From assembly GCA_027340875.1 (NCBI GenBank), contig DAIENX010000018.1:1-48980 (forward strand): a DNA stretch of 48,980 nt. The letters run 5' to 3'. Of this stretch, positions 989-26,131 are shown piece after piece. Each line of letters begins with the position of its first letter. The first letter of the stretch is position 1. The notes under the pieces are model-generated. The model was given only the letters and a program-made list of their open reading frames with translations. It was not told the DNA's origin and made no database searches. The position numbers and the translations under genes were made by a program. This stretch comes from Elusimicrobiota bacterium (GTDB taxonomy: Bacteria; Elusimicrobiota; Elusimicrobia; Elusimicrobiales; UBA9959).

Positions 989-1019
989 GGGGCAAAGGGG
1001 TCAGGTCTTGACTTTTGAC
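989..1019 (+). repeat. Motif B (REP-like) GGGGCAAAGGGGTCAGGTCTTGA
   Basis: 23-nt identical direct copy at 1549-1571; variants at 4454, 7825, 13525, 14272. Confidence 0.85.
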
Positions 1020-1064
1020 CTTTAGGGCAGGCTGACGGGTAAAGGTGTAATGGGGGCGTATGCA

Positions 1065-1505
1065 ATGAAAACACTATTGTGTTGTGTGCTTTTGTTCTCT
1101 TCGTCGCTGGTTTTTGCGAATAGTTCTGAGTGGAAATTCCTTACCATAGATGCGGAATGGAATATCCATAAAGGCACAGCTGCTGTTATCTTAAAAAATG
1201 GGGATGAATTTGAATACCCCAAGCAATATTCTTTTTCGATTCAATTCGTCGCGAAGGATAGATCTAATCAATCTCAAAATTTTAATATACATGGGGTAAT
1301 GAAAGACAATTCCATCGCATATTTATTTTTGCATTCTAATCTTGAAGGTAAGGTGGCAATGGGTCCCTCTGGCGTTATGCAGGAGTGTAGTGGCAAATAC
1401 AGTAAAATTTCTCACGAAGATTCTGATGAAGTGCAAGAGAATATCAGCTTGTTGTGTGATAATTCATTGTTTTTTACATTTAGAAGAGACTCAAAGAGAA
1501 AATAG
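1065..1505 (+). CDS. Hypothetical secreted protein (AT-rich cassette)
   Basis: MKTLLCCVLLFSSSLVFA signal-peptide-like N-terminus; markedly AT-rich; bounded by direct copies of motif B; alternative start 1050. Confidence 0.7.
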   Translation: MKTLLCCVLLFSSSLVFANSSEWKFLTIDAEWNIHKGTAAVILKNGDEFEYPKQYSFSIQFVAKDRSNQSQNFNIHGVMKDNSIAYLFLHSNLEGKVAMGPSGVMQECSGKYSKISHEDSDEVQENISLLCDNSLFFTFRRDSKRK

Positions 1506-1557
1506 CTACCGTCGAGCAAAGGGTCTCGGGAGAGCAGCGGCAAACGGGGGGGCAAAG

Positions 1558-1669
1558 GGGTCAGGTCTTGATTGTTGACTGTTGAGACGGAGCCGCCGGG
1601 GAAGCCCGGCGGTTTTGCTTTTGGTAGAATGTTCGCATGGTAGGCAAGTCAAGAATCAAGACCTGACCC
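1558..1669. mobile_element. REPIN/MITE-like unit: inverted motif-B pair enclosing repeat A
   Basis: GGGTCAGGTCTTGATTGTTGAC (1558-1579) and GTCAAGAATCAAGACCTGACCC (1648-1669) are inverted, 21/22 identical. Confidence 0.55.
1590..1630 (+). repeat. Repeat A (terminator hairpin + extended -10)
   Basis: GAGCCGCCGGGGAAGCCCGGCGGTTTTGCTTTTGGTAGAAT. Confidence 0.9.
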
Positions 1670-1743
1670 TATTCGTACGTTATCATCGTCGCGGTTATAG
1701 TGATTGTTTGGAGGCAGGACGTTTGTCAGTTCTTTTTGAAGAG

Positions 1744-2151
1744 ATGAACGACCATAATTATTACAGTACTTTTCTCAGCGTAGCGGAAGATTCCAGGGCG
1801 CTGACCGGTGTAGTCCCGGAGGCCAAAGCCGGGAAAGACACCGTTGCTTCGCTCCAGTACAAACTTATTTCGAAAGCGCCGTACGAACTTACCCAGGAAG
1901 ATGTTTTATTCAAAGTATACGCTCTCCGAAACAATATCGCCGATAATGATCTGAAAAAAGAAAGAGAAAAATTCTTTTCCAAAAGGCAGCCTTGCTTGCG
2001 AACTTCGCCTCTTGGCAAGGCTTATGGCTGGGGTATTCATTTCCGCCGGGATGGGAAAATCGCTTTATATGCGGTCGATTCAGGGGAATACAGGCAGTAT
2101 TCCAGGGACAAGTCGCTGAAACAGATAAAAGCAATGCGGTCAGGAAAGTAA
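1744..2151 (+). CDS. DUF6157-like hypothetical protein
   Basis: NYYSTFLSVAEDS...TVASLQY...FFSKRQPCLRTSPLGKAYGWGIHF; the longer ORF from 1582 only reads through repeats. Confidence 0.75.
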   Translation: MNDHNYYSTFLSVAEDSRALTGVVPEAKAGKDTVASLQYKLISKAPYELTQEDVLFKVYALRNNIADNDLKKEREKFFSKRQPCLRTSPLGKAYGWGIHFRRDGKIALYAVDSGEYRQYSRDKSLKQIKAMRSGK

Positions 2152-2158
2152 AAAAAGC

Positions 2159-2180
2159 GGAATTCCGGGGACACAATATT
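2159..2180 (+). repeat. Motif D (REP-like) GGAATTCCGGGGACACAATA
   Basis: Related copies at 8985-9011, 9614-9638, 11195-11221 and 10071-10114, each directly 5' of repeat A. Confidence 0.8.
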
Positions 2181-2183
2181 GCG

Positions 2184-2226
2184 GAGCCGCCGGGGAAGCC
2201 CGGCGGTTCTGTTTTGGTAGGATAAT
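2184..2226 (+). repeat. Repeat A
   Basis: GAGCCGCCGGGGAAGCCCGGCGGTTCTGTTTTGGTAGGATAAT. Confidence 0.9.
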
Positions 2227-2254
2227 GCGGATGGGGGCTTCGCCCCGGCGCCTG

Positions 2255-3118
2255 CTACTTCGTAATGGGGGTAAGGACAAACAGTGGGTCTTTGTCGCAG
2301 ACTATAACGCCTGCTTCTTCCGGATATGACAGGCCGTAGATGTATAAAACCTTGTCCTTCCAGCTGTAACCCATCCTTTCGGGGAAGCCGTTCTTCATCC
2401 TGATCTGTCCGAAGCTGTCGTCCAGCACGTCGAAGGTCTGGCAGCCGCCGTCGGGCTAGTCTTCCGCGAAGTCCTGCTGCACCGCGTAATTGAACGCGCG
2501 GCCGGGCCAGACGGCTTTTTTGTCGGTGAAAACGAAGGAGCGCCCCTGGCTGTCCTTATACTTTCCGGCAAGTACGGTCCTGTTCACGTACCGCGTGATG
2601 TCCTCGCCGGTCTTTATGAACGCCGCTTTCCGCCATTCGATCTTCTTATTCTCGTCAAAATCCTTTTTGCTCCACTCAATTTCCTGAACGGAGTTGCCGG
2701 CTCTGGAGACTATCCGGACCATTTCCCCGGAGGTCATGGGGGTCAGTTTCACGGTCTTTTCCGGGCCTTCGGCCAATTCCTCCTTGCCGTAGACAAGGAT
2801 AAAGGAGTCGTCGCCTGCGGGCCGCAGGTCCAGTATGGCCGGGGCATCCCCACCCTCATGGAAGTTGTAGATGAACGTCCTGACATAGCGGCCATTGGCC
2901 GGGCCGCTGTCCGCCTTGAAGATGCGCAGGCTGCAGGCGTCCGGGACCTTCTCTACGGCTTGCTTGGGGTCTTTGGTGGCTTGCAGGGTCTCGGAGTACT
3001 CCTTGCTCAGCCAGGTCCCGGCCAGCTGTTCTATGGAGACGGCGGTCTTCTCCGCCGCGGCGGACGTAATGGCCGGGATGAAAAGGATCGCTGTTATGAT
3101 CGCGGATATTATTCGCAT
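2255..3118 (-). pseudogene. Secreted hypothetical protein with internal in-frame TAG at 2456-2458
   Basis: 220-aa ORF with signal peptide; the frame continues 66 sense codons after the TAG (PDGGCQTFDVLDDSFG...KDPLFVLTPITK) to TAG at 2255. Confidence 0.6.
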
Positions 3119-3185
3119 AATTCCCTTATGTAGCCGCCGTGCCTGGATAACGGGAATATAATAGCATTATTGCCGTTTTTGGGGG

Positions 3186-3215
3186 TTGACGGGCTTGCGG
3201 GGTTAGTGCTATACT
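3186..3215 (+). promoter_or_regulatory. Sigma70-like promoter of ArsR gene (probably leaderless)
   Basis: TTGACG-18-TATACT with TG extension; GTG start 6 nt after the -10. Confidence 0.55.
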
Positions 3216-3221
3216 ACTGTT

Positions 3222-3536
3222 GTGGAAATATCGAACTATTCAAGGGTATTCAAGGCGCTCTCCAATGAACAGCGGCTCAGGATATTCATGATGATATACG
3301 AGCGCTGGAAGAAGGAGCGGGACGCGGCCCTCATCCCGGCGGAGGAGGGATGCTGCGCGGTGGACAGGGCTTTCACCAAGATCTGCTCCTGCATGAAGCT
3401 GTCGCGCTCTACCATCTCGCACCATTTCAAGGAGCTCCAGGCCGCCGGCCTGATAACCTGCGAGCGGGACGGGCAATCGTATAAGTGCCGCATCAATGAG
3501 AAGTCGATAGAGTCCATAAAGCATTTCCTGAAGTGA
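3222..3536 (+). CDS. ArsR/SmtB family transcriptional regulator
   Basis: FKALSNEQRLRIF...LSRSTISHHFKELQAAGLITCERDG; Cys-rich insert GCCAV..ICSC. Confidence 0.9.
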   Translation: MEISNYSRVFKALSNEQRLRIFMMIYERWKKERDAALIPAEEGCCAVDRAFTKICSCMKLSRSTISHHFKELQAAGLITCERDGQSYKCRINEKSIESIKHFLK

Positions 3537-3555
3537 TTTTTTTTGCGGAGTATGT

Positions 3556-3571
3556 TCGATGTTCGTAGAAC
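3556..3571. promoter_or_regulatory. Putative ArsR operator (imperfect inverted repeat)
   Basis: GTTCGA-tgttcg-TAGAAC between arsR-like gene and small Cys-rich gene; TCGAACTA also overlaps the ArsR 5' end. Confidence 0.35.
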
Positions 3572-3595
3572 TATAAAACAAAAGGAGGTGATAAT

Positions 3596-3763
3596 ATGAA
3601 GAACTGCTGCGACAAGAACCTGGAGAAACTTTGCGGCGAGCTCGACTGCAAGACCACCGAGACAGCTGATGGCGTTAAGGTCGAGATAACCGCGAAAGAC
3701 CCGAAGAAGACCGGTTCCCTGAAGGCGCTCGTGAAGGCCTGCAAGGAATTCTGCTGCTGCTAG
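3596..3763 (+). CDS. Small Cys-rich putative metal-binding protein (55 aa; not in ORF track)
   Basis: Strong RBS AGGAGGTG; MKNCCDKNLEKLCGELDCKTTETADGVKVEITAKDPKKTGSLKALVKACKEFCCC; downstream of ArsR. Confidence 0.8.
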   Translation: MKNCCDKNLEKLCGELDCKTTETADGVKVEITAKDPKKTGSLKALVKACKEFCCC

Positions 3764-3817: not shown

Positions 3818-3851
3818 GAGCCGCCGGGGAAGCCCGGCGGTTTTGCTTTTT
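3818..3851 (+). repeat. Repeat A (no TAGAAT)
   Basis: GAGCCGCCGGGGAAGCCCGGCGGTTTTGCTTTTT. Confidence 0.9.
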
Positions 3852-3906: not shown

Positions 3907-4446
3907 ATGTCCGAGGGGATCGTTCCGAGGGTCGATATTGAGTCGAAAATACTCTTGATCCGCGGATACAGGGTAATGCTGGACTCGGCGCTGGCGGATA
4001 TTTACGGTACCAGTACTAAGCGGCTTAACGAGCAGGTGTTCAGGAATCGGGCCCGGTTTCCCGGGGATTTCATGTTCCAGTTGACCCGGGCTGAATACGA
4101 TTCTTTGAGGTCGCAATTTGCGACCTCAAAAGGACGCGGGGGGCGGCGTTATCTACCTTATGTCTTTACCGAGTACGGCTGCATCCATGCCGCCAACGTG
4201 GTCAATACGGAGATCGCTATACAGGCGAGCATTGCCGTGGTGAGGGCGTTCGTGCGCTTGCGGCAGCTGGTCTTTGCTCACCGGGAACTGGCCGAAAAGC
4301 TTTCTGAACTGGAACGAAAGGTGGCCGGACAGGACGCGGAGATCCGCTCTATAGTGGGGATGATCCGTGAGCTGATGGAGGGGATGTCTCAGGATCGTCC
4401 AGGTAAAGAGTGCGGCCCAATGCGCAGGATAGGGTTTAGCCCATAA
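3907..4446 (+). CDS. ORF6N domain DNA-binding protein
   Basis: IRGYRVMLDSALADIYGTSTKRLNEQVFRNRARFPGDFMFQLT...GGRRYLPYVFTEYG...RRIGF. Confidence 0.9.
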   Translation: MSEGIVPRVDIESKILLIRGYRVMLDSALADIYGTSTKRLNEQVFRNRARFPGDFMFQLTRAEYDSLRSQFATSKGRGGRRYLPYVFTEYGCIHAANVVNTEIAIQASIAVVRAFVRLRQLVFAHRELAEKLSELERKVAGQDAEIRSIVGMIRELMEGMSQDRPGKECGPMRRIGFSP

Positions 4447-4529
4447 GGCGCAAGGGCAAAGTGGTCAGGTCTTGGCAGTCTGATGGTCGCCTGATGCGCA
4501 TAGCGCAGACTTTTGACTGTTGAGGCTTA

Positions 4530-4569
4530 AGCCGCCGGGAAAGCCCGGTGGTTTTGCTTTTGGTAGAAT
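4530..4569 (+). repeat. Repeat A, preceded by split motif B (4454-4524)
   Basis: AGCCGCCGGGAAAGCCCGGTGGTTTTGCTTTTGGTAGAAT. Confidence 0.88.
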
Positions 4570-4610
4570 GTGGGGACAATACTGCCGGGAAGATCGGTCC
4601 GAGCTACTGC

Positions 4611-5456
4611 ATGATACCACCTCTCCGAATGCTGATAGGAGCCTTCTTTCTGGCTTGGGCGGGAGCGTTGCCGTCTCTGGCGGAGGAGGCCTGTTCTCCT
4701 CCTATCCACACGGGGCCGCAGTCGCACGGGGCCCGGTCAAGCAACCCGAATATATCATCAGGCGACTGCGCGCGGTATCGGGAGGCCCAAGAGGTGGTGG
4801 ATAAACTCGCCAAGGCGGGTGGCTTGTCGCTGAATCCCGTGGCGATTTTCAAGATAGACGATTTCGGGGTCTCGTACAACCGGTATGATCGACGGGTGGC
4901 TATAAGTCTTGGCGCGCTGCGCCGTCCCGGGGGGGTCATGGCGCTGACGGGGATACTCGCGCACGAGATCGGGCATGCCTTGCAATGGGACGCCCACGCG
5001 CGGAAAGCGATTTTCAGCCAGCCCGCCTACAAGGGGACCGTGCAGTTTGAAGCGCATGCCGATGCTCTGGGCGCTTTGTTGCTTGAAAGATCGGGTGTGG
5101 GACAAAAGGCGCTGCGGCTCAGCCATGTGGTATCCTGGGGCTGTTCCGATATGCTGATCGACCATGGGAACGCATATAGGCCGGCTCACGGGGACAGATG
5201 GGTGAATGGCGTGCTCTTTCGAGAACGGGTGGTTTCGCTCGCCGCGATCAAGCCTGCCGGCGATCCAGTGGAGTTGATAGGGCTTGATGCTTTCGATGAG
5301 CGTGGCCGGGTAAGGGGCGTGTTTTTGAGCACTGAACCGGCGGTCGCGGCGGGGCTAGAGTCGGATGCCTTTCGCCGGGGACTTATTAAGGAGCGCTGCG
5401 GGGTCCCGGGGTGGCTGTTCCGGCTGGAAGACTGGCGGCGCCGTTGGATAAAGTGA
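4611..5456 (+). CDS. Putative secreted M48-like zinc metallopeptidase
   Basis: Signal-like N-terminus; GILAHEIGH (HExxH) and downstream EAHADALG. Confidence 0.6.
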   Translation: MIPPLRMLIGAFFLAWAGALPSLAEEACSPPIHTGPQSHGARSSNPNISSGDCARYREAQEVVDKLAKAGGLSLNPVAIFKIDDFGVSYNRYDRRVAISLGALRRPGGVMALTGILAHEIGHALQWDAHARKAIFSQPAYKGTVQFEAHADALGALLLERSGVGQKALRLSHVVSWGCSDMLIDHGNAYRPAHGDRWVNGVLFRERVVSLAAIKPAGDPVELIGLDAFDERGRVRGVFLSTEPAVAAGLESDAFRRGLIKERCGVPGWLFRLEDWRRRWIK

Positions 5457-5482: not shown

Positions 5483-5513
5483 GCCGCCGGGGGCAAGCCG
5501 GCGGTTATTTTTT
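5483..5513 (+). repeat. Repeat A, degenerate (terminator-like)
   Basis: GCCGCCGGGGGCAAGCCGGCGGTTATTTTTT. Confidence 0.65.
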
Positions 5514-5535
5514 ATGCGGGGGCGGCGGGCTGGTC

Positions 5536-5607: not shown

Positions 5608-6054
5608 ATGAAACTTAACAATATCCGGTTAATGACAAATAAGTTCGACGAAACGTTCTCTTTCTACTCTAAAACCCTCGGTTTCGAGGTCACCTGGGGC
5701 GCTCCCGGGGAGACCTATGCGCATTTCAAGGCGCCCGGCGGCGGAGAACTCTCGCTTTTCAGCCGTAAGGCCATGGCGGAGGCCCTGGGGACGGAACGGC
5801 TGCCGGCCGCGGCGGCCGCGCAGGACGGGTTCGCGCTCATACTGGAGGTGCCGTCGGTGGACGGCGTCTTTAACGAGCTTTCGGCTAAAGGTGTAAAGTT
5901 CCTTACGACGCCGGAGGACAGGAAGGACTGGGGTATCCGCACGGCGCATCTGCGGGACCCTGAAGGGAACCTGCTGGAGCTTATCTCGGACCTGCCCAGG
6001 GAACAATGGAGCAAGGAGCTTAACGAGGAAGCGAAAAGCTATGTCAAAGAATAG
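5608..6054 (+). CDS. VOC/glyoxalase family protein
   Basis: FYSKTLGFEV...WGIRTAHLRDPEGNLLEL; RBS GGAGG. Confidence 0.9.
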   Translation: MKLNNIRLMTNKFDETFSFYSKTLGFEVTWGAPGETYAHFKAPGGGELSLFSRKAMAEALGTERLPAAAAAQDGFALILEVPSVDGVFNELSAKGVKFLTTPEDRKDWGIRTAHLRDPEGNLLELISDLPREQWSKELNEEAKSYVKE

Positions 6055-6313
6055 GCGCCTGGAGGACCTGGTATCCGTGGGGCCGGCGACGTTGGAAGAC
6101 CTGCGCAGGCTGGGTGTGCGTAGCGTGGCGGAACTGGCGCGCCGCGAGCCACGGGAATTATACCGGGAACTGTGCCGCCAAAAGGGCCGGCACGTCGATA
6201 TCTGCTGCCTGGATACGTTTGCCGCGGCGGTAGCCCAGGCGAAGGATCCGGCGCTGCCGGCAGTGAAACGCTTCTGGTGGTATTGGAGCCGCCAGCGCAA
6301 GAAGAAAGTATGA
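6041..6313 (+). CDS. Helix-hairpin-helix domain protein (mitomycin-resistance/Cdd1-like)
   Basis: LEDLVSVGPATLEDLRRLGV...LYRELC...DICCLDTFAAAV...WWYWS; overlaps neighbours. Confidence 0.75.
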   Translation: MSKNRRLEDLVSVGPATLEDLRRLGVRSVAELARREPRELYRELCRQKGRHVDICCLDTFAAAVAQAKDPALPAVKRFWWYWSRQRKKKV

Positions 6314-6861
6314 GATCCCGCTCTCTTTCCACCTGCGATATCCTGATCTTAAGCCTGCTGTGCGAGCAGCCGATGCACGGCTATCAGATGAACCAGGAAC
6401 TTGAGAACAGGGATGTCAGGGACTGGGCTAATATCTCCAGGCCGCAGGTGTATTACTCCCTGAAAAAGCTGGAGCAGATGGGGATGGTCTCCCCTGCCGC
6501 CGACGCCCAGCCGCCTGTCGGCCCGGAACGCCGGCTGTGCCGTATAAATTCCTCCGGCCGCGCTGCATTGGTTAAAGCGCTGGGGCGGAAGAGCTGGGCC
6601 TCGCAGCGCACTATACCGCCTTTCCTCACCTGGCTGGCCCTTTCGCCGCATGCCGGGAAAGATGCCGTGCGTGCGCAGCTGAAAGCCAGGGCGGAATATC
6701 TCGGCCGGGAACTAGAGCGCGAGCGGAAGACGCTCGCGGCGCTGGCCAGTGAAACCGGTGTCATGGCCGTGCCGGCCCGCCTGATGGTGGAGCTGACGGT
6801 GAAGCACTTCGAAACGGAGCTGGAATGGCTGAAGAAAGCGAAAAAGGAGATATTGGAGTAG
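6310..6861 (+). CDS. PadR family transcriptional regulator
   Basis: ILSLLCEQPMHGYQM...ISRPQVYYSLKKLEQMG...PERR; ATGA coupling at 6310. Confidence 0.88.
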   Translation: MRSRSLSTCDILILSLLCEQPMHGYQMNQELENRDVRDWANISRPQVYYSLKKLEQMGMVSPAADAQPPVGPERRLCRINSSGRAALVKALGRKSWASQRTIPPFLTWLALSPHAGKDAVRAQLKARAEYLGRELERERKTLAALASETGVMAVPARLMVELTVKHFETELEWLKKAKKEILE

Positions 6862-6886
6862 GGGGTTGGGCCCATATCCTGATCGC

Positions 6887-6930
6887 AGCCGCCGGGGGAG
6901 AGGAACCCGGCGGTTTTGCTTTTGTAGAAT
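6887..6930 (+). repeat. Repeat A (expanded loop)
   Basis: AGCCGCCGGGGGAGAGGAACCCGGCGGTTTTGCTTTTGTAGAAT. Confidence 0.85.
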
Positions 6931-6977
6931 GTGGAGGGGGAGTTGATCACGGGAGAGGGGGAAGGAGCTGGATCTGA

Positions 6978-7791: not shown

Positions 7792-7812
7792 AAAAGGTAC
7801 CTGGTACCTTTT
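7792..7812. repeat. Motif C perfect palindrome AAAAGGTACC-T-GGTACCTTTT
   Basis: Copies at 10647-10671, 11743-11765, 13585-13609; variant at 12904-12924. Confidence 0.88.
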
Positions 7813-19335: not shown

Positions 19336-19734
19336 ATGAAGATCCTTATCGTGGACGACAACCTGGAGCTGGCCTGGGTGCTGGCCGACTGCCTGAAAAG
19401 GGAAGGCTATGAAACCCTGACCGCCGCCACCGGCGCCGAAGGCATTAAGGCGGCCCTGTCCTTCCTGCCCGACCTGGTGCTGCTGGACTACAACCTCGGC
19501 GACATGAACGGGCACGACGTGGCCGTGGCGATAAGGAACATGCGCAAGACCTCCGGTATCCCGTTCCTGATACTGTCGGCCCACGGCGCGGACCCCATGC
19601 TGGTGCGCGGTTTCGCGCGGCTGCCGAACTGCCGCGGCTCGATGTCGAAGCTGCTCTCGACCAGCAAGGTCCTCGCGGCGGTCCGCAAGGCGCTGCACGA
19701 CGGCAAGCCCGCCGCGCCGGCGCACGGTTCCTGA
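19336..19734 (+). CDS. Single-domain response regulator (copy 2)
   Basis: MKILIVDDN...PDLVLLDYNLGDMNG. Confidence 0.9.
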   Translation: MKILIVDDNLELAWVLADCLKREGYETLTAATGAEGIKAALSFLPDLVLLDYNLGDMNGHDVAVAIRNMRKTSGIPFLILSAHGADPMLVRGFARLPNCRGSMSKLLSTSKVLAAVRKALHDGKPAAPAHGS

Positions 19735-19757
19735 CCTCCCGCCGCTTTCCCCGGGCG

Positions 19758-19788
19758 AAAAAAAACCGCCGTCCGCGAGGACGGCGGT
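19758..19788 (-). terminator. Intrinsic terminator of RRM copy 2
   Basis: AAAAAAAACCGCCGTCC-gcga-GGACGGCGGT. Confidence 0.8.
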
Positions 19789-19810
19789 CCAAAACCGTTA
19801 AAGGGTTTTA

Positions 19811-20143
19811 TTACCAGCGCTTGTCGTAGCCGCCGCGCCCGCCGCCGCGGCTGCCGCGGTCGCTGCGGCCGCCGTTGAAGCCGCCGGCCCTGGGCTCCAT
19901 CGGGCGAGCCTCGTTGACGGTCAGCTTGCGGCCGTCGAAGTCGGTGCCGTCGAGCTTGGAGATGGCCGCGGTGGCCTCCTCGTCGTTCGCCATCTCCACG
20001 AAGCCGAAGCCCCTGGACTGGCCGCTGTACTTGTCGGTGATCAGCTTGGCGCTGGTGACCGCGCCGTGGGTGGTGAACAGGGCGTTCAGCTCCTCCTCGG
20101 TGGTCTTGAAGGGCAGTCCGCCCACGTATATACGCTTGCTCAT
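19811..20143 (-). CDS. RRM (RNP-1) RNA-binding protein (copy 2)
   Basis: Identical RRM core to copy 1; differs in the Gly/Arg tail. Confidence 0.93.
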   Translation of the reverse strand: MSKRIYVGGLPFKTTEEELNALFTTHGAVTSAKLITDKYSGQSRGFGFVEMANDEEATAAISKLDGTDFDGRKLTVNEARPMEPRAGGFNGGRSDRGSRGGGRGGYDKRW

Positions 20144-20511: not shown

Positions 20512-22467
20512 ATGAAAAAATCATTCTGCGCGGCGTCGTTGGTCCCTTCTCTTCTGATAGCCTCGAGCATGGTATTTGCTGCCGACGGGTCTATCCTGCG
20601 GTTGTCGGATGTAAGCGGCACCGTCAATAAGCTCATACAGGAGCAGAAAGATTTTAATGGCCAGCAGCCTGGCCACGGCTGGCAGCCTGGTCAGCCTGGC
20701 CAGCCTGGTTGGCACCCCGGCCTACCCGGCCAGCAGCCTGGCGGCGACCACGGCGACGATCATGATGGTCCCGGCGATGATCACGGTGGTCAGCCACATC
20801 CTCAGCCGCAACCGCAGCCTCAGCCCCAGCCTCAGCCGCAACCCCAGCCGCAGCCTCAGCCCCAGCCTCAGCCGCAGCCGGTGCCCGTGGATACTACCCA
20901 GGCATATAATGCCGGCCTGAGGGATGGCGCCGACAGAGGTATCTGGGAAGGGAGGCGTGAAGGCCACAGGGACGGTATCCGCGCCGGAGAGATAGAAGGC
21001 CGCAGGAACGGCACTGACGAAGGCGACAGAGCGGGTCGCTCCGCCGGCAGGCGCGATGGGTGGGGTGTAGACCAGGCCGCGGGAACCCTGAACGGGAGCC
21101 GCGAAGGCCAGAATACCGGCACCAATAACGGCATCCAGGCCGGCCAGAAGCGCTGCTATGACGAGGGTTATACGGATGGTTACAACGCCGCCTATGCGGC
21201 GGCTAAGGAGCTGGGGGAGCAGGACTCCTCTTCTTACAGCGCCGGGTACGCGAAAGGTCAGGCCGAAGCCTCGGCCATAGAGACCGGGAACGGGCAGAAG
21301 GCCGGCTACCAGGCCGGTTTCAGCCAGCGCGAGACCGAGCTGCAGAACTCCTTCACCGGCAACGGCGCGGCCGTGCGCGGCGTCTTCGCGAAGAACGTCC
21401 TGGCGCTGGACGGCAGGATAGAGCTCCCGATAGAGATGGCCCGCGGCGGCTATGCGACCCAGGAAGAGAAGCAGGCCTACGACAGGGGCTATAGAGAGGG
21501 CTATCAGAGGGCTTACAGGCGGGCGTATGAGGAAGGCAAGCGGGACGGATACAGGGAGAGCTACGACGTGACCTACAGGCGGGCCTACGACGAGCAGTAC
21601 TCCATCAGCTACCGGCTCGGTTATGCCGAAGGAAAAGAGCAGGGCTACCAGGAAGCCTATTCAGCGGCCTACAACTCCGCTTACGCCGCTTACTTCCAGG
21701 AATACAGCGGCAGGGAATACGCCGACCAGAGGGTCCAGGGCACGAGCGTAGGCCGGGCCACAGGCAAGAAGGAAGGTTTCGAGGACGGCTGCGCCGAGGC
21801 CACGAAGCGCGGCTACAAGGACGGTTACGAGAAGATGGCCGCCCAGGTGTACCCCGGAGCTTTCGAGGCCGGCAAGCAGGCCGGCATAGCCGCGGCCGAC
21901 AAGTATTACAACGAGAATGCCGTGCTCAAGCTCGGCGGCGTCTCCTTCTACGACGAGAACGGCAACGGCCAGTTCGAGGCCACCGAGAACGTGATGATGA
22001 AGGCCGAGATAAAGAACTTCGGCTTCCAGCCGTCCGACACCGTCTCCATAGTGGTCACTAGCGAGCGCGGCGAGATAGTGATAGCTCCCGACATGCGCGC
22101 CGAGGGCGTGGGCGCCCGCGCGAAGGGCGTGGTCACCCTCAACGTCGGCAAGCTGTACGACGTGGTCGCTCCGGACTCGGACGCCCTTTACGTGAAGTTC
22201 GTTGAGAAGGGGCGGACGGTGGGCGACTACCGCCAGATGTACACCAGGACCAACGCCAACAAGGTCGGCGTGATCGGCAAGGACGAAGTGGACGTGCTGA
22301 AGAAGGCCACCTGGTTCTTCCCCGGCAAGGTGACCACGCTGCACCGCGGCGACAAGGTCCTGATAACCGAGGAGAAGGGCGATTACTACAAGGTCCGCAG
22401 GTCCGCGTTCGCCGCCGGCGACTGGACCGAGGGCTACATCAACAAGGGCAAGCTGGGCCTGCAGTAA
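20512..22467 (+). CDS. Large secreted protein: PQ repeat, GYxxG(Y) helical repeats, Ig-like and SH3b-like C-terminus
   Basis: Signal peptide; (PQ)n; GYREGYQRAYRRAYEEG-type repeats; DENGNG..AEIKNFG; C-terminal TLHRGDKVLITEEKGDYYKV..EGYI. Confidence 0.8.
   Translation: MKKSFCAASLVPSLLIASSMVFAADGSILRLSDVSGTVNKLIQEQKDFNGQQPGHGWQPGQPGQPGWHPGLPGQQPGGDHGDDHDGPGDDHGGQPHPQPQPQPQPQPQPQPQPQPQPQPQPQPVPVDTTQAYNAGLRDGADRGIWEGRREGHRDGIRAGEIEGRRNGTDEGDRAGRSAGRRDGWGVDQAAGTLNGSREGQNTGTNNGIQAGQKRCYDEGYTDGYNAAYAAAKELGEQDSSSYSAGYAKGQAEASAIETGNGQKAGYQAGFSQRETELQNSFTGNGAAVRGVFAKNVLALDGRIELPIEMARGGYATQEEKQAYDRGYREGYQRAYRRAYEEGKRDGYRESYDVTYRRAYDEQYSISYRLGYAEGKEQGYQEAYSAAYNSAYAAYFQEYSGREYADQRVQGTSVGRATGKKEGFEDGCAEATKRGYKDGYEKMAAQVYPGAFEAGKQAGIAAADKYYNENAVLKLGGVSFYDENGNGQFEATENVMMKAEIKNFGFQPSDTVSIVVTSERGEIVIAPDMRAEGVGARAKGVVTLNVGKLYDVVAPDSDALYVKFVEKGRTVGDYRQMYTRTNANKVGVIGKDEVDVLKKATWFFPGKVTTLHRGDKVLITEEKGDYYKVRRSAFAAGDWTEGYINKGKLGLQ
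20800..20880 (+). repeat. Coding tandem repeat (CCNCAR)n encoding poly-PQ
   Basis: cctcagccgcaaccgcagcctcagccccag... Confidence 0.9.
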
Positions 22468-22490
22468 GCGGCTCCAGCGGGCAAAGCGAG

Positions 22491-22542
22491 GCCGCCGGGC
22501 GGAAAGCCCGGCGGTCTTGTTTCAGGGAAGGTTTAGTAGAAT
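22491..22542 (+). repeat. Repeat A variant
   Basis: GCCGCCGGGCGGAAAGCCCGGCGGTCTTGTTT...TAGAAT; ATG 6 nt downstream. Confidence 0.75.
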
Positions 22543-22548
22543 ATCAGC

Positions 22549-23268
22549 ATGGGAATCGTGGAATTCTTAAGCGACAAGGGAAGAGTTTCCGGGGCGGTAA
22601 TGGCCGCGGCGGCCGTGATCGTGCTGTGCTCGGGCGGCGCGTTCTGCGGCGATAGTCCTTACGAGCTGCGCGCCGGCAAGGAGACCGCCAGGACGCTGAG
22701 GGATTTCGACATAGACCGCGTCGTGGAAGCCGTCACTTCCGGGATGATAGAGGCCTCGCGGAATTATTATCTTCCGGAGAAGTCCGCGGACCGCAAGGCC
22801 GTTGCCCGCTACAGGAAGGACGCCAGGTTCATACTTAAGCATGACAGCGACTTCCGCCGCTCGCTGGCGGGGCTGAGCAGGGTGCTGGCCGAGACCGCGG
22901 TGGAAGCGCTGGACCAGGAAAAGAACGCGCTGCCCGGCAAGCCGCTGGCGCTGTCCCCTGCGCAGAGCTACGAGCCGTACGACGAGGGCCTCTCCTCCAT
23001 AACGGTCACGGACGACGGGGAGATGAAGACGATATTCACCAACACTATGCCGTGCATCAACGCCGCTGGTAAAGGACTGTTCGGTGGGGTCCGCCTGCAA
23101 TATCTGGCCGGTTTCCAGGAAGGTTCCCAAGAGGACATGTATTATCGCCGCGAAGCTTCGGCCTCCATGAGCAGCGACCGTTTCTATAACCACGTGCTGG
23201 CCGAGGCCTGCGCGCGCCTTGTCCGCGCGGCGCAGCTGCAGGCCGAAAGCGGCCGCGGCAAGCGCTAG
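22549..23268 (+). CDS. Hypothetical exported protein
   Basis: Hydrophobic N-terminal segment; 239-aa ORF with coding-like GC3 bias. Confidence 0.65.
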   Translation: MGIVEFLSDKGRVSGAVMAAAAVIVLCSGGAFCGDSPYELRAGKETARTLRDFDIDRVVEAVTSGMIEASRNYYLPEKSADRKAVARYRKDARFILKHDSDFRRSLAGLSRVLAETAVEALDQEKNALPGKPLALSPAQSYEPYDEGLSSITVTDDGEMKTIFTNTMPCINAAGKGLFGGVRLQYLAGFQEGSQEDMYYRREASASMSSDRFYNHVLAEACARLVRAAQLQAESGRGKR

Positions 23269-23314
23269 GCGCGGCTGTCCGTTTATAATTCCGGACAGGA
23301 AAGCTCCGGAAGTT

Positions 23315-23824
23315 TCAGCGTTTATCCGCGGAGGCCGGCTTGGCCGGGAGATAGTTCTCTATCCTCCAGACGAGATCGTCCCTGGTGGAGGGACCGAAGC
23401 CGGCCGCCGACCAGAGCAGTCCTCCGTCGGCGACGAACAGGGCCATGGCCGGTTGTCCGACAAGTAGCAGCGCGCGTTCGAGCGTGCCCGAGGGGTCCAG
23501 GGCGACGCTCAGCGTGGTCGGATGACTTTTCAGATACTTCATTACGGCGTCCGGTTTTTCTCCGGTATTCACGGATTGCACCGCGAAAGATCTGTCTCCG
23601 TATCGTTTTTGCAGTTCTTCTATGAAAGGCTTATGTATGCGGCAGGGGACGCAATTGGTCGTCCAGAAGTAGACCAGGACGACTTTTTCCTTCAGCGCCG
23701 AAAGACGGACAGGCGGGCCGCCCGCCGCGTTTATCAACGGAATGTCGCAGCTGGCGGGGATCCCGGAGTAGACGGGGGCTTGCAGCAGGAAGAGGCTCAG
23801 TACATGGAAGAGTATTCTTGTCAT
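23315..23824 (-). CDS. TlpA/ResA-like thiol-disulfide oxidoreductase
   Basis: LKEKVVLVYFWTTNCVPC (CxxC); RBS GGGAG before MTRILFH. Confidence 0.85.
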   Translation of the reverse strand: MTRILFHVLSLFLLQAPVYSGIPASCDIPLINAAGGPPVRLSALKEKVVLVYFWTTNCVPCRIHKPFIEELQKRYGDRSFAVQSVNTGEKPDAVMKYLKSHPTTLSVALDPSGTLERALLLVGQPAMALFVADGGLLWSAAGFGPSTRDDLVWRIENYLPAKPASADKR

Positions 23825-23985
23825 GGCGCGTCTCCCGTAGTCGGCCGCATTCGCGATGTCGCCCTGTGGGTGCGGCACATATATCATACAATATCGGCCT
23901 CGGTCGGGCACGGCTCCGGCCGCTTTGTTTGGTAGAATATTCCAGGTCAGGGTTTTTTCATGATGACTGCACGTAAGAGGATACA

Positions 23986-24372
23986 TTGAAAGCGGCGAGG
24001 ATCCTGCTGGTAGGCGGCGGCGCCGAGTTGGCCGAGCTGTGCGTCGGCACCCTGGAGAGGGAGAACTCCGAGCACGTGCTGATGGTGATAGACCACGAGC
24101 ACAGCGACCGTGTCGTCAGCATAGCCGAAGCTTTCAGGCCGGACGCGGTGCTGCTGCTGGCCAAGGACCACATGAAGCCGATCGACGGGGCGGAGGTGTG
24201 CCGCCAGCTCCGCGCTAACGCCGTTACCGGCGCTTCCAAGATAATACTGTTCTCGTCGGACAGCCTGAAGAAGGGGCTGCGCGCTGCCAAGGCCTGCGGC
24301 GCGGACGCCTTCATAAGGAAGCCGTTCGAGCCGGACCAGCTTATAGAGATGATGGAGCTGCTGCTGTCGTAG
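23986..24372 (+). CDS. Atypical receiver-domain protein
   Basis: PDAVLL..HMKPIDGAEVCRQLR...GADAFIRKPF; N-terminal acidic pair replaced by GGG; TTG start. Confidence 0.7.
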   Translation: MKAARILLVGGGAELAELCVGTLERENSEHVLMVIDHEHSDRVVSIAEAFRPDAVLLLAKDHMKPIDGAEVCRQLRANAVTGASKIILFSSDSLKKGLRAAKACGADAFIRKPFEPDQLIEMMELLLS

Positions 24373-24396
24373 CGCCGGACGGCCGGAGACCCGCAG

Positions 24397-24428
24397 AACC
24401 GTCGGGCGTCGCCCGGCGGTTCTCTTTT
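24397..24428 (+). terminator. Intrinsic terminator (repeat A-like hairpin)
   Basis: AACCGTCGGGCG-tc-GCCCGGCGGTT-CTCTTTT. Confidence 0.6.
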
Positions 24429-24450
24429 GCGGAGCCGCGCAGAAGGCGGG

Positions 24451-24603
24451 TCAGTCCGTTAGGGGGCGCAGCACCGGCGTCTCGCCGGCGCTTATGACCG
24501 GCGAGGGGGCCTTGGGCATGATTACGGCGGCCGCGAGGAAGGCGGCGCCGAGGAAGATAGCTAAAGCGGCGGCGAGATTCTTCATATTGTCGTTCTGCTG
24601 CAT
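24451..24603 (-). CDS. Small single-pass membrane protein (50 aa; not in ORF track)
   Basis: MQQNDNMKNLAAALAIFLGAAFLAAAVIMPKAPSPVISAGETPVLRPLTD; RBS GGAG and TAGAAT upstream on the minus strand. Confidence 0.55.
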   Translation of the reverse strand: MQQNDNMKNLAAALAIFLGAAFLAAAVIMPKAPSPVISAGETPVLRPLTD

Positions 24604-24789
24604 CGTTCTTCTCCGTTCAACTGCGGATCCCTATCGCTTATATTCTAGCCGGCGCGGGGAAAGCCCGTGTAAGCCGCGTGTAATATCCGTGTAAAGTCCG
24701 CCGCACGGGACCGCGTGTCATGGCGGGCGGATTTTGATATCATAGGTTCGCTGGAGAAAGGGGGCAGGAAAGACTTTTCAGGAGGGTAT

Positions 24790-25293
24790 ATGAAGAAACC
24801 GCTCATAGTCATCGCAGTCATAGCCGCGGCCGCCGCGCTGGGGGGGATAGCCGTGCTGAAAGGCGGCTATATGGAGTTCGGCGCGGACAGGGCGCCGTCC
24901 GCGCTGGAGACCAACCTGGCCATGGCCGCGCTGGACGCCTCGCTGGACCGCCATTCGGAAGGTCTCAAGAACCCGCTGCAGGCCGACGAGAAGACCCTGA
25001 AGGCCGGCGCGGAAGTTTACCTCAATCACTGCGCCGGCTGCCACGGCCTGCCGTACAATCCGAACTCGGAGTTCGGCCGGTCCTTCAACCCGCCGGTGCC
25101 GCAGTTCTTCACCGAGGCGCCGGACATGTCCGACGCGCAGAACTTCTACGTGACGCTGCACGGCATACGCTGGACCGGCATGCCGGCCTGGGGCAAAACG
25201 CTTAGCGAGACGGAGATCTGGCAGGTGGTGACCTTCCTCGCCAACACCGGGAAGCTGCCGCCGGCGGCGGCCAAGGTGCTGGCCAAGCCCTGA
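24790..25293 (+). CDS. c-type cytochrome (monoheme, membrane-anchored)
   Basis: YLNHCAGCHG heme motif; GIRWTGMPAWG axial Met. Confidence 0.9.
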   Translation: MKKPLIVIAVIAAAAALGGIAVLKGGYMEFGADRAPSALETNLAMAALDASLDRHSEGLKNPLQADEKTLKAGAEVYLNHCAGCHGLPYNPNSEFGRSFNPPVPQFFTEAPDMSDAQNFYVTLHGIRWTGMPAWGKTLSETEIWQVVTFLANTGKLPPAAAKVLAKP

Positions 25294-25319
25294 GCGCGGC
25301 GTGACCGTTCGGACCGCGT

Positions 25320-25358
25320 AGCCGCCGGGCAAGCCCCGGCGGCTTTGTTTTGTAGAAT
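25320..25358 (+). repeat. Repeat A
   Basis: AGCCGCCGGGCAAGCCCCGGCGGCTTTGTTTTGTAGAAT; ATG 7 nt downstream. Confidence 0.85.
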
Positions 25359-25365
25359 CTATGCG

Positions 25366-26031
25366 ATGACGAATGAAGCGACTCCGGAGCACCGGGAGCA
25401 CTGCTATGTCTGCCGCAGGGTGAAGAAACACTGCCTGTGCGGCAGCATCAGGCCGTTCGGCACGCGGACGCGCTTCGTCATACTGATGCATGTGGAGGAG
25501 GCCAGGAAGCAGAAGACCGGCACCGGCCGGCTGGCCAAGCTGTGCCTGACCAACTCGGAGCTGCTGGTGGGGACCAATTTCAGCGAGGACGCGCGGGTGA
25601 ACGCCCTGCTCCGGGACCCGGCCTACGTTCCTTTCGTGCTGTATCCGGGGCCGAAAGCGGTGAATTTCGGTGCCCTCGGGCCCGGGGCGCTGCCGGAGGG
25701 GAAGAGCTTCCTTATCTTCGTGATAGACGGGACCTGGCGCACGGCCAGGAGCCTGCTGAACAAGAGCGGGAACGTCCGCGCTCTGCCGCGCATCTCATTT
25801 TCCGGCGCCTACCGCTCCCGCTTCTCCATCAAGAGGCAGCCCATGGCGCATTGCGTCTCCACGATAGAGGCCGTCTATCATCTGTGCCGCGAGGCCGAGG
25901 CGGCGGGCTACGAGGAGCTGGGCCGGCGCTGCGAAGTGTTGATGACGCTGCTGGGAGAGCTGGTGGAAACGCAGGAGCGTTACGTCAGGGAGCGTCACAG
26001 GACTAGGGAAGCGAGCCGGCGCGCGCGCTGA
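25366..26031 (+). CDS. DTW-domain tRNA-uridine aminocarboxypropyltransferase (TapT/YfiP-like)
   Basis: CYVC..HCLC; ILMHVEE..KTGTGRL; VIDGTW; STIEA. Confidence 0.88.
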   Translation: MTNEATPEHREHCYVCRRVKKHCLCGSIRPFGTRTRFVILMHVEEARKQKTGTGRLAKLCLTNSELLVGTNFSEDARVNALLRDPAYVPFVLYPGPKAVNFGALGPGALPEGKSFLIFVIDGTWRTARSLLNKSGNVRALPRISFSGAYRSRFSIKRQPMAHCVSTIEAVYHLCREAEAAGYEELGRRCEVLMTLLGELVETQERYVRERHRTREASRRAR

Positions 26032-26131
26032 ACCCGGGGCCGGGAGTCCGCGACGTTTTTGTTTGGTAGAATAGAGACGGACGGGCCAGCGGGCCCGGCA
26101 TTGACCGCGAGGACCGTACAGGCTACACCAT

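What the first reader, a model, noticed from the sequence alone, without database searches (positions are those of the whole stretch)
989..26072. Integron-like gene-cassette array punctuated by a co-oriented terminator-promoter repeat, with no attC or integrase
Seen: about 20 copies of repeat A (GAGCCGCCGGGGAAGCCCGGCGGTT(T/C)TG(C/T)TTTTGGTAGAAT), all on the + strand, at 1590, 2184, 3818, 4530, 5483, 6887, 7855, 8511, 9017, 9642, 10117, 11224, 11781, 12932, 13610, 15877, 16686, 18663, 22491, 23897, 25320 and 26037. They separate gene-sized units of one gene or a short operon, mostly co-oriented. Cargo is heterogeneous in GC. Copies are denser and more conserved near rpsJ and become sparser and more degenerate after ~19 kb. 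Established: VOC, GNAT, PhzF, ArsR, MNT and small secreted proteins are typical integron-cassette cargo, but repeat A lacks the attC RYYYAAC/GTTRRRY cores. Inference: a possibly undescribed gene-capture array in which each unit carries its own insulator/promoter junction and is added with polarity, mobilised in trans.
Basis: partly seen in the sequence, partly recalled or inferred. Interest (0 to 1): 0.88.

Follow-up and report, generated by a model that had tools for sequence, protein, structure and literature searches.

The report
Polar gene-cassette array with transposase ends
In one genus of Elusimicrobia, the DNA behind a ribosomal-protein gene is a fast-changing row of foreign genes, each separated by the same stop-and-start signal joined to the end sequence of a little-studied DNA-cutting enzyme, which looks like a way of collecting genes that resembles an integron but has no integron integrase.

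Summary
All 22 copies of repeat A exist and face one way; 42 of 49 genome-wide copies lie in two arrays, behind rpsJ and behind an AddA-like helicase. The rpsJ array recurs across the genus and is polar. Relatives 97-99% identical through rpsJ diverge right after its terminator, GC3 rises from 0.60 to 0.81 with distance, and shared genes are reordered but keep their strand (201 of 202).

These TIRs fade with distance and favour transposase types of the same genome. No integron integrase, attC or dif site was found.

Best reading (0.5): TIRYT acting in trans joins foreign genes to TIR ends, and exchange between A copies then adds, drops and shuffles units, like phage PeSL cassettes. Main rival (0.3): TIRs are passengers. 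No circle or enzyme activity is shown. The scan noted similar TIR-junction arrays on other DNA (e.g. e1-6550920); my searches found no paper on this system.

The parts
29..340 (+). 3' part of tuf (EF-Tu), cut by the contig start
   Evidence: PF03143
345..677 (+). rpsJ (S10), conserved anchor of the array
   Evidence: PF00338; relatives
718..760 (+). rpsJ intrinsic terminator; homology between close relatives ends within a few bases of its T-tract (array head)
786..965 (.). Element B, a nested palindromic MITE/REP-like element; often found at array heads but dispersed genome-wide on both strands, so not array-specific
997..1020 (+). TIRYT-type TIR (GGGGTCAG class), no repeat A behind it
1065..1505 (+). 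First cargo gene, no Pfam family, N-terminus looks like a signal peptide, GC 0.36 (genome about 0.63)
1557..1670 (+). Complete mini-element: TIR forward (1557), repeat A with -10 box (1590-1632), TIR reversed (ends 1670)
1744..2151 (+). DUF6157 cargo gene
2167..2230 (+). TIR (GGGGACAC class) + repeat A (2184)
2456..3763 (.). Unit: unknown protein (-), ArsR regulator (+, 3222-3536), small Cys-rich protein (+, 3596-3763)
3818..3851 (+). Repeat A, no TIR
3907..4446 (+). ORF6N-domain gene (PADLOC PDC-S05 match)
4461..4570 (+). TIR (GGGGTCAG class, interrupted by a small palindrome) + repeat A (4529)
4608..5456 (+). Peptidase M48-like cargo gene (weak match; start uncertain)
5483..5515 (+). Repeat A (weak)
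5608..6861 (+). Unit: glyoxalase/VOC, Cdd1/TfoX-C-like, PadR regulator
6886..6934 (+). Repeat A with -10 box
6978..7766 (+). PhzF-family gene
7792..7878 (+). Palindromic TIR identical to that of this genome's own TIRYT gene, a GGGGTCAG-class TIR remnant, and a truncated repeat A (7855)
7926..8432 (-). GNAT acetyltransferase
8490..8544 (+). TIR (GGGGACG class) + repeat A (8511)
8552..8860 (-). Minimal nucleotidyltransferase-like gene (below Pfam cut-off)
8993..9052 (+). TIR (GGGGACAC class) + repeat A (9016)
9122..9607 (+). Bact_hydrolase (PF20603) gene
9620..9687 (+). TIR (GGGGACAC class) + degenerate repeat A (9642)
9722..10105 (+). Cargo gene, no Pfam family
10088..10161 (+). TIR (GGGGACG class, overlapping the end of the upstream ORF) + repeat A (10116)
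10278..10562 (+). Small membrane protein (weak holin-like match)
10649..10669 (.). Palindromic TIR (one change from the resident TIRYT TIR), no repeat A
10691..11191 (+). Unknown gene; first window gene shared with a relative's array (0.66 kb from the head in G024)
11203..11270 (+). TIR (GGGGACAC-like) + repeat A with -10 box (11223)
11304..11729 (+). Pyridoxamine-phosphate-oxidase-like gene
11744..11829 (+). Palindromic TIR of the resident TIRYT + degenerate repeat A with -10 box; ATG 6 nt behind it
11831..12892 (+). AlkZ-like glycosylase; same unit at 22 kb in G010 and 17 kb in G024, homology starting in the 3' arm of A
12904..12972 (+). Palindromic TIR variant + repeat A (12931)
13040..13504 (+). 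Unknown gene, lipoprotein-like N-terminus
13587..13657 (+). Palindromic TIR of the resident TIRYT + repeat A with -10 box (13609); last TIR-bearing copy
13698..14887 (+). Membrane protein, TIR remnant (14275), response regulator (14336-14887; 90-91% identical copies at 4.8 and 6.2 kb in G010 and G020, each followed by a TIR variant that is absent here)
15069..15842 (+). DUF4097 gene; skipped by a contig of a related strain in two runs
15876..15920 (+). Repeat A with -10 box, ATG 7 nt behind
15912..16663 (+). Small membrane protein + DUF2975 gene
16686..16729 (+). Repeat A with -10 box
16723..18517 (.). Unknown gene (+), response regulator (+, 17314-17700), unknown gene (-)
18663..18707 (+). 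Repeat A
18787..20143 (.). Two RRM RNA-binding genes (-) with a second response regulator (+) between them; an RRM gene follows rpsJ almost directly in the near-empty genome G011
20513..22467 (+). Large protein with a Q/P-rich repeat, shared by 7 of 9 relatives at different ranks (start uncertain)
22490..22532 (+). Repeat A; in 5 relatives the match to the upstream gene runs through this copy
22549..23824 (.). Unknown gene (+) and redoxin (-)
23902..23945 (+). Degenerate repeat A with -10 box
23986..25293 (+). Response regulator, weak A copy (24399), cytochrome c
25320..25363 (+). Repeat A with -10 box
25366..26031 (+). DTW-domain gene, shared by 7 of 9 relatives
26039..26078 (+). Degenerate repeat A with -10 box
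26132..38300 (.). Old distal part: native-like GC, genes (MATE, response regulators and others) still reordered among relatives; one A-like terminator at 31041. The end of the array is not sharp

Best explanation
A chromosomal gene-collecting array that grows at the end next to the rpsJ terminator (and at a second, weaker site after an AddA-like helicase gene). The junction reads: upstream stop codon, TIR of a TIRYT-type HUH tyrosine transposase, repeat A (G+C hairpin and T-tract, a likely terminator), then often the host-type -10 box with the next start codon 6-7 nt behind. SHOWN by sequence comparison: clustering, one orientation, fixed anchors, an age gradient, reordering without inversion, identity of the junction motifs with TIRs of TIRYT genes, and two kinds of breakpoint (within or at the edges of A, and at the outer G-run of the TIR). 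INFERRED: (1) TIRYT proteins encoded elsewhere cut single-stranded DNA at TIR outer ends and join it to foreign DNA, making new gene-TIR-A units and sometimes truncating genes. (2) Crossovers between co-oriented A copies excise, add and reorder units through circles or incoming DNA. (3) New material enters at the head because crossover in the conserved 3' end of the anchor gene supplies one side of the exchange. (4) A insulates each unit and, in about half the copies, supplies its promoter.
For: Clustering: 42 of 49 hits at 18 bits or more lie in two arrays, 41 of them on one strand; element B, by contrast, is dispersed on both strands. The strict A pattern occurs in 21 of 25 genus genomes and 0 of 16 from other families. 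A copies after rpsJ (+/-): G000 22/0, G010 23/0, G017 25/1, G020 19/1, G024 15/0, G022 12/1, G014 10/0, G003 8/0, G008 7/0, G011 1/0, G002 0/0 (5 kb only), three other-family genomes 0; none upstream of rpsJ in 5 loci with 7.6-10 kb upstream. Polarity: pairs 97-99% identical through rpsJ share nothing right after the terminator; GC3 rises 0.60 to 0.81 (rho 0.52); genes shared with another genome are 11 of 64 in the first 5 kb against 49 of 73 at 20-30 kb; G008 and G011 keep 19 of 19 adjacencies but G008 has about 13 kb more at the head. Shuffling: 201 of 202 reciprocal pairs keep strand while order changes (G000/G024 0 of 6 adjacencies kept), whereas two core regions stay largely in order. A 1.2-kb unit 97.6% identical in L092 and L093 starts at A and ends at the next A's -10 box. 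TIR link: same-strand TIR upstream in 95 of 197 A copies (29/52, 43/68, 20/43, 3/34 by distance), opposite strand 5 of 197, other terminators 6 of 159, random windows 79 of 5000. Array TIRs match inverted repeats flanking TIRYT genes and favour the same genome's variants (11 vs mean 4.4; 0.9% of 5040 permutations). The TIR starts within -4 to +16 nt of the upstream stop in 33 of 55 cases, the same gene is followed by different TIRs in different genomes, and ORF6N and ThiF genes break off at a TIR. Head addition: partial duplicates of the anchor's 3' end bracket a first unit in L085 and G002 (rpsJ) and G008 (helicase). Related HUH enzymes cut and rejoin ssDNA 5' or 3' of their site (PMC8266576, passages).
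Against: No circle, cleavage or transfer was observed; read joints that go back lie at repeat ends and are ambiguous. 102 of 197 A copies have no recognisable TIR. A is absent from 30 of 30 Y1-transposase loci examined, so it is not part of the transposase's own ends. G021 has an array but no TIRYT was found (91% complete), and G011 has three TIRYT matches but an almost empty array. This genome encodes one full TIRYT plus two fragments, while its arrays carry four TIR classes. In several TIRYT loci the left TIR also sits just after a stop codon (seen, not counted), so stop-codon abutment may reflect target choice of solo TIRs. TIR dimers and TIR-A-TIR minis exist, which fits independent MITE-like movement. 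The GC3 gradient is not significant in 5 of 10 genomes taken singly. TIR patterns were chosen after seeing both data sets, and the genomes are kin. An internal unit also varies, so change is not confined to the head.
Confidence: 0.5

Rival explanations
1. PeSL-like shuffling only. Repeat A is a terminator-promoter cassette border that host homologous recombination uses to add, delete and reorder genes (fed by DNA from relatives and anchored in tuf-rpsJ). The TIRs are passenger mini-elements that TIRYT drops into the gap between stop codon and terminator in a tolerant region.
For: Breakpoints at A with the TIR swapped or absent; half of the A copies lack a TIR; TIR dimers occur inside and outside arrays; a ComEC-type gene is present; partial anchor duplicates need only homology; PeSL exchange is published with no integrase identified (PMC2839356 passages); an array without a detected TIRYT (G021).
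Against: It does not explain why TIRs are mostly single and face A (96 direct vs 13 reversed in head loci; 123 of 168 direct TIRs have an A arm within 110 nt), why they rarely precede other terminators (6 of 159), or why genes break off at TIR outer ends. It also leaves open how a foreign gene first gains its A borders.
Confidence: 0.3
2. An unidentified site-specific recombinase or transposase (IS110-type, large serine recombinase, or one carried by a passing element) targets repeat A, which would then be a true att-like site.
For: A is far more conserved across the genus than a terminator needs to be, including a fixed G inside the T-tract (83% of 197 copies). Three large serine recombinases lie elsewhere in the genome.
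Against: No recombinase gene was found at the array head in this genome; no integron integrase over cut-off; the two tyrosine recombinases score best as XerD and XerC (catalytic domains only); IS110 gives one broken sub-threshold hit; no reverse transcriptase found (genome 92% complete). The loop of A varies in length and sequence.
Confidence: 0.12
3. A is an ordinary lineage-typical terminator or REP, the region is a generic insertion hotspot, and the one-way pattern only reflects replication or transcription direction or mis-assembly at repeats.
For: 7 of 49 A-like hits lie outside the arrays. The + strand is the G-rich, leading-type strand in 8 of 9 scored rpsJ regions, so strand lock may follow replication. 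The -10 box with a nearby ATG is the genome's usual promoter (27 of 72 sites).
Against: 86% of copies fall in about 2.4% of the genome; the same layout recurs in independent assemblies; exact contigs from sequencing runs span several A copies (e.g. 10121-15912 in X1; these runs may be the source of the window); unit borders coincide with A and TIR. A replication-strand bias is also what a single-strand HUH enzyme would give.
Confidence: 0.05

Closest known systems
PeSL (promoter-early stem-loop) cassettes of T4-type phages (Arbiol et al. 2010, PMC2839356, passages; Comeau et al. 2014, PMC4122927, first third)
   Same: A repeated composite terminator-promoter between small accessory genes in a hypervariable region; gain, loss and replacement of genes at the repeats; no integrase identified.
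   Different: Here it is a bacterial chromosome with fixed anchors behind core genes, an age gradient from one end, a -10 box in only about half the copies (often leaderless), and HUH-transposase TIRs fused 5' of the hairpin. Mini-circles and promoter/terminator activity are shown for PeSLs and untested here.
TIRtrons / TIRYT (Di Nocera et al. 2013, PMC3733652, passages) = TnpA-Y1 subclass 2.1 (Quentin et al. 2018, PMC6006769, passages) = RAYT group 1 (Bertels et al. 2017, PMC5581495, passages)
   Same: The junction motifs fit the GGGGWSAS consensus or are self-complementary TIRs and match inverted repeats around Y1 genes with NH(V/F/Y)H and Y-x-x-NP motifs in this genus; TIR singles and dimers occur.
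   Different: Published TIRs flank the transposase gene or form dispersed singles, dimers and clusters. Here they are single, co-oriented, fused to a terminator-promoter and lined up between cargo genes. The passages read describe no cassette array and no biochemistry for this subclass.
Sedentary chromosomal integrons and CALINs (defining features from my own knowledge, not from a call)
   Same: A polar array of one-gene units with the newest at one end, a repeat right after the stop codon, one orientation, similar cargo (GNAT, VOC, PhzF, nucleotidyltransferase).
   Different: No IntI, no attI/attC cores; units carry their own terminator and often a promoter; the anchor is a core gene.
REPtrons / REP-BIME with TnpA-REP (Corneloup et al. 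2021, PMC8266576, passages)
   Same: An HUH Y1 enzyme acting in trans on short repeats, able to cut and rejoin single-stranded DNA on either side of its site.
   Different: A has no GTAG at the 5' foot of the hairpin, is not dispersed and does not flank the transposase gene; the enzymes belong to another subclass.

Membership tests
Integron / CALIN | IntI tyrosine recombinase | tested here: not met
   TIGR02249 best 72.7 bits against cut-off 265; only XerC/XerD-like hits; genome 92% complete
Integron / CALIN | attC sites with RYYYAAC...GTTRRRY cores | tested here: not met
   0 of 22 copies and 0 in 0.7-27 kb by a strict pattern; IntegronFinder's attC covariance model was not available
Integron / CALIN | Polar array of co-oriented one-gene units that are gained, lost and reordered | tested here: met
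PeSL cassettes | Conserved composite of terminator stem-loop and promoter between accessory genes | tested here: met
   Hairpin plus T-tract; -10 box in 96 of 197 copies; by sequence only
PeSL cassettes | Indels and replacements with breakpoints at the repeat | tested here: met
   L092/L093, L096/L102, G008/L091, G017/L085
PeSL cassettes | Mini-circles from exchange between neighbouring repeats | tested here: inconclusive
   Only assembled contigs were available; backward joints lie at repeat ends
PeSL cassettes | Measured promoter and terminator activity | not testable with these tools
PeSL cassettes | Located in hyperplastic regions of T4-type phage genomes | tested here: not met
   Chromosomal, behind tuf-rpsJ; no match in the phage collection; one isolated, unrelated match in viral contigs
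TIRtron / TIRYT TIR family (junction motifs only) | Repeat matches the inverted repeats flanking a Y1 HUH transposase gene (GGGGWSAS or self-complementary type) | tested here: met
TIRtron / TIRYT TIR family (junction motifs only) | Transposase with subclass 2.1 motifs | tested here: met
   NHVH and YIHLNP in the gene at C111:16320-16961; PF01797 over cut-off; NF047646 60 bits, below its cut-off of 80
TIRtron / TIRYT TIR family (junction motifs only) | Transposase gene between a TIR pair at this locus | tested here: not met
   No TIRYT gene in the window; one 64-residue fragment across all arrays searched
REP / REPIN | GTAG tag 5' of the hairpin, genome-wide dispersal, flanking of the RAYT gene | tested here: not met
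   Consensus 5' of the stem has no GTAG; 42 of 49 copies clustered; 0 of 30 Y1 loci carry A
pdif modules | XerC/XerD 11-6-11 sites between modules | tested here: not met
   No dif-like site within 5 mismatches of a recalled E. coli/Acinetobacter-type consensus in 1-32000; this lineage's own dif is unknown

The most novel reading that the evidence does not exclude
An integron analogue run by HUH (Y1) tyrosine transposases. TIRYT enzymes of several specificities, acting in trans on the single-stranded lagging-strand template, capture foreign genes at their TIR ends into self-insulated, self-promoted cassettes that pile up in order of age behind a core gene. This would give RAYT group 1 / subclass 2.1 transposases, the largest and least studied group, a host function.
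Probability: 0.4. Interest if true: 0.9.

Novelty: new variant of a known kind. Interest (0 to 1): 0.76.

Why it matters
Integrons are the standard example of ordered gene capture in bacteria. This array shows the same outcome across a whole genus (a fixed entry point, an age-ordered record, turnover between close relatives) without IntI or attC, so integron finders would miss it. It moves the PeSL principle from phages to a chromosome and ties it to TIRYT transposases, whose substrates and role the papers I read leave untested. It supplies exact enzyme-TIR pairs, predicted cut positions, and filled and empty alleles, which makes the function of these domesticated transposases directly testable.

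Tried and rejected
Integron integrase, IS110 and reverse transcriptase searches in this genome: nothing over cut-off; three serine recombinases lie on other contigs and were not followed. attC, dif and Rfam: none. Phage and viral collections: no match, and one isolated unrelated match. Sequencing runs: 4 DNA runs of 1 study, 3 flagged as a possible source of the window; no RNA holder listed. They are contigs only, so no circle junction could be told from repeat ambiguity; short-sided and backward joints were not used. Element B as a special head site: rejected, it is dispersed on both strands. Repeat A as part of the transposase's own ends: rejected, 0 of 30 loci. Repeat A as a decayed rpsJ terminator: only two true rpsJ fragments were found downstream; not pursued. 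Retro-copying of leaderless mRNAs: no reverse transcriptase found, and it would not regenerate the promoter. Replication strand: the + strand is leading-type in 8 of 9 scored regions but ambiguous on C110 and the first 21 kb of C69; it cannot separate replication from transcription direction. My pattern for the operator-like palindrome was mis-specified and returned 3 irrelevant sites. PADLOC: of 14 proteins scanned, ORF6N matched PDC-S05 and the nucleotidyltransferase matched two models weakly. Literature searches found no paper on this array or on TIRYT-linked cassette arrays; the library lacks most subscription papers and no supplements were opened.

Full report
Setting. The window is contig C80 of a 2.8-Mb genome, 92% complete. 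It opens with the end of tuf and with rpsJ. A strict pattern for repeat A with its -10 box gave 96 stretches in the genome collection. Of the 80 listed, 78 are titled Elusimicrobia/Elusimicrobiales or unnamed 'bacterium', and 2 lie on one contig labelled Actinobacteria. The organism is therefore placed among Elusimicrobia by inference.

Observation. All 22 copies exist on the + strand, far above chance (17 matches against a mean of 0.32 in 100 resamples). A is an 8-11 bp G+C stem with a variable loop and a T-tract; a -10 box follows in 14 of 22. Genome-wide, 49 hits reach 18 bits: 22 in this array, 20 in a second array on C69 that runs into C3 through an overlap of the contig ends, and 7 elsewhere. 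A different small palindromic element (B, 786-965) is dispersed on both strands and serves as an internal contrast.

The locus in relatives. The strict A pattern is found in 21 of 25 genus genomes and 0 of 16 genomes of other families. Behind rpsJ, 9 of 11 genus genomes examined carry 7-25 co-oriented copies in 12-49 kb; G011 has one and G002 none in 5 kb. A scan for the rpsJ terminator gave 36 metagenome loci. Pairs that are 97-99% identical through rpsJ (G020/L104 98.9%, L088/L113 98.5%, G020/L085 97.7%) stop matching within a few bases of the terminator's T-tract, and no A lies upstream of rpsJ in five loci with 7.6-10 kb upstream. In nine genomes pooled, GC3 rises from 0.60 in the first 5 kb to 0.81 at 30-40 kb (rho 0.52; significant in 5 of 10 genomes singly), and genes shared with another genome rise from 11 of 64 to 49 of 73 at 20-30 kb, then fall to 27 of 66 at 30-40 kb (genes called with a rough script of my own). 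None of the 15 window genes before 10.6 kb has a match of 50% or more in the nine relatives' rpsJ regions. G008 and G011 keep 19 of 19 adjacencies, but G008 has about 13 kb more at the head. Shared genes change order but not strand (201 of 202 reciprocal pairs), while two core regions stay largely in order.

Second site. The C69 array starts behind a UvrD/PD-(D/E)XK (AddA-like) gene. In 18 relatives the DNA after this gene differs from genome to genome; 7 of 18 have 1-4 A copies, G005 has 5, and G001 goes straight into the conserved genes. Genes of this genome's C69 array occur among rpsJ-type genes in other genomes, so the two sites share a pool.

The DNA just 5' of A is often a terminal inverted repeat of a TIRYT-type HUH transposase. 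This genome's only full Y1 gene (C111:16320-16961) is flanked by the same 21-bp palindrome that precedes A at 7792, 11744 and 13587. Y1 genes occur in 37 of 43 genus genomes, and their inverted repeats are the GGGGTCAG, GGGGACG and GGGGACAC motifs of the arrays. These fit the GGGGWSAS consensus of Di Nocera et al. (PMC3733652, passages) and subclass 2.1 of Quentin et al. (PMC6006769, passages). I counted 197 A copies in 26 head loci; I left out duplicate loci, the other-family controls, and G011, G002 and nine short loci with no or almost no A. A same-strand TIR lies within 75 nt upstream in 95 copies: 29 of 52, 43 of 68, 20 of 43 and 3 of 34 with rising distance. Controls were 5 of 197 on the opposite strand, 22 of 197 downstream, 6 of 159 other terminators and 79 of 5000 random windows. 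The patterns were chosen after seeing both data sets. Array TIRs match the same genome's TIRYT repeats 11 times against a permutation mean of 4.4 (0.9% of 5040 permutations; 7 genomes, kin). A itself is absent from 30 of 30 Y1 loci.

Breakpoints. Shared units show two kinds of border. One is at A: a 1.2-kb unit 97.6% identical in L092 and L093 starts at A and ends at the next A's -10 box, and L096/L102, G008/L091 and G017/L085 share A and the gene but differ in the TIR in front. The other is at the outer G-run of the TIR: L090/L102 and a partial second copy in L093 start there. The TIR starts within -4 to +16 nt of the upstream stop codon in 33 of 55 cases, and the same gene is followed by different TIRs in different genomes. 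On C69 an ORF6N gene breaks off after 26 codons and a ThiF domain at position 90 of 238, each at a TIR. A reversed TIR follows A at 76-98 nt in 8 places, including window 1557-1670, giving TIR-A-TIR minis. In L085 and G002 the first unit is followed by a second, partial copy of the rpsJ 3' end and terminator, and G008 shows the same for the helicase; this is the trace expected of additive crossover in the anchor gene. In two of four sequencing runs, a 300-nt contig about 92-93% identical joins 14884 to 15930 with 63 other letters between, so a related strain lacks the DUF4097 unit (one study, possibly the source; the 63 letters were not shown).

Enzymes excluded or not found. No integron integrase over cut-off; the two tyrosine recombinases score best as XerD and XerC; IS110 gives one broken weak hit; no reverse transcriptase; three large serine recombinases lie elsewhere; a ComEC-type gene is present. 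No attC or dif pattern, no Rfam match.

Mechanism. I favour two layers (0.5). TIRYT proteins acting in trans make new gene-TIR-A junctions by single-strand cut-and-join at TIR outer ends. Crossovers between co-oriented A copies, helped by the conserved anchor gene, then add, drop and reorder units. HUH relatives are shown to cut and rejoin single-stranded DNA on either side of their site (PMC8266576, passages). The array strand is the leading-type strand, hence the lagging-strand template, in 8 of 9 scored regions. Against this: half the copies lack a TIR, G021 has an array but no TIRYT found, G011 has three TIRYT matches but almost no array, this genome's arrays hold TIR classes whose enzymes were not found in it, and no circle or activity is shown. 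The main rival (0.3) keeps the A-mediated shuffling and treats TIRs as passengers. An unknown A-specific recombinase (0.12) and an ordinary terminator or artefact (0.05) are less likely.

Comparison. It works like an integron and like the PeSL cassettes of T4-type phages (PMC2839356, passages; PMC4122927, first third). It is a member of neither: IntI and attC were tested and not met, and it is chromosomal. The junction motifs are members of the TIRtron TIR families. A bioRxiv note links subclass 2.1 genes to lanthipeptide clusters but, in its own post-submission note, finds no strong evidence for or against cause (10.1101/2020.03.09.984088, first of two parts). Eight literature searches found no description of this array; supplements were not opened and subscription papers are mostly absent. 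Earlier notes of this scan report TIR-marked junctions in other phyla and PeSL-like arrays in viruses and one bacterium; they are unchecked leads. This case adds fixed anchors, an age gradient, filled and empty alleles, and the enrichment for the genome's own TIR types.

Verdict. A real, genus-wide, polar cassette array without an integrase. I file it as a new variant of a known kind (PeSL-like junction plus TIRtron ends), interest 0.76. If TIRYT-driven capture is confirmed (probability 0.4), it would be an HUH-based integron analogue worth 0.9.

Noticed in passing
window:3851-3870; C69 ORF6N units; upstream of the transposase gene in many of L055-L080: A palindrome of the form CCGACA-N5-TGTCGG overlaps the promoter of ORF6N genes and of most TIRYT genes in the genus; possibly a shared repressor site (SOS-like is a guess). 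My genome-wide pattern for it was mis-specified.
   Followed up: partly
G000:C69:21575-54712 and C3:1-2340: Second polar array behind an AddA-like helicase, with near-identical young TIR-A junctions, five ORF6N-like genes, an empty unit and truncated genes.
   Followed up: yes
window:786-965: Element B, a nested palindromic mini-element with no Rfam match; dozens of partial copies genome-wide and at many array heads in relatives.
   Followed up: partly
window:4490-4510, 10598-10620, 13545-13570: A further short repeat (the inner part of element B) sits in several junctions and interrupts a TIR at 4461.
   Followed up: no
window:17314-20143: Local tandem duplication: two response-regulator genes (87% identical over 300 nt) and two RRM genes (95% over 300 nt), the RRM genes ending in Gly/Arg-rich tails.
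   Followed up: no
L089, L098, L107 versus L093, L097: rpsJ follows a tuf copy preceded by an EF-G-like gene in some loci and by a different gene block in others, suggesting exchange between two tuf copies or assembly ambiguity. In this genus rpsJ is followed by the array, whereas in G026 an ORF that reads like rplC (recalled, not searched) follows.
   Followed up: no
whole genome: 27 of 72 T-rich TAGAAT sites have an ATG 5-8 nt downstream, pointing to common leaderless mRNAs in this organism.
   Followed up: partly
L085:551-2141; G002:C85:291-3800; G008:C4: Partial duplicates of the 3' end of the anchor gene bracket a first unit (in L085 a Fic-like gene, in G002 an ORF6N gene interrupted by an IS21-like element; both names from reading the sequence, not from a family search).
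   Followed up: partly
window:20779-20885: Q/P-rich tandem repeat near the start of a large protein shared by 7 of 9 relatives' arrays; no informative Pfam family.
   Followed up: no
G000:C14:90040-90900 and C110:48900-51679: Small TIR-A islands at two other contig ends, one with an IS3-like element (read from sequence); possible third and fourth entry sites.
   Followed up: no
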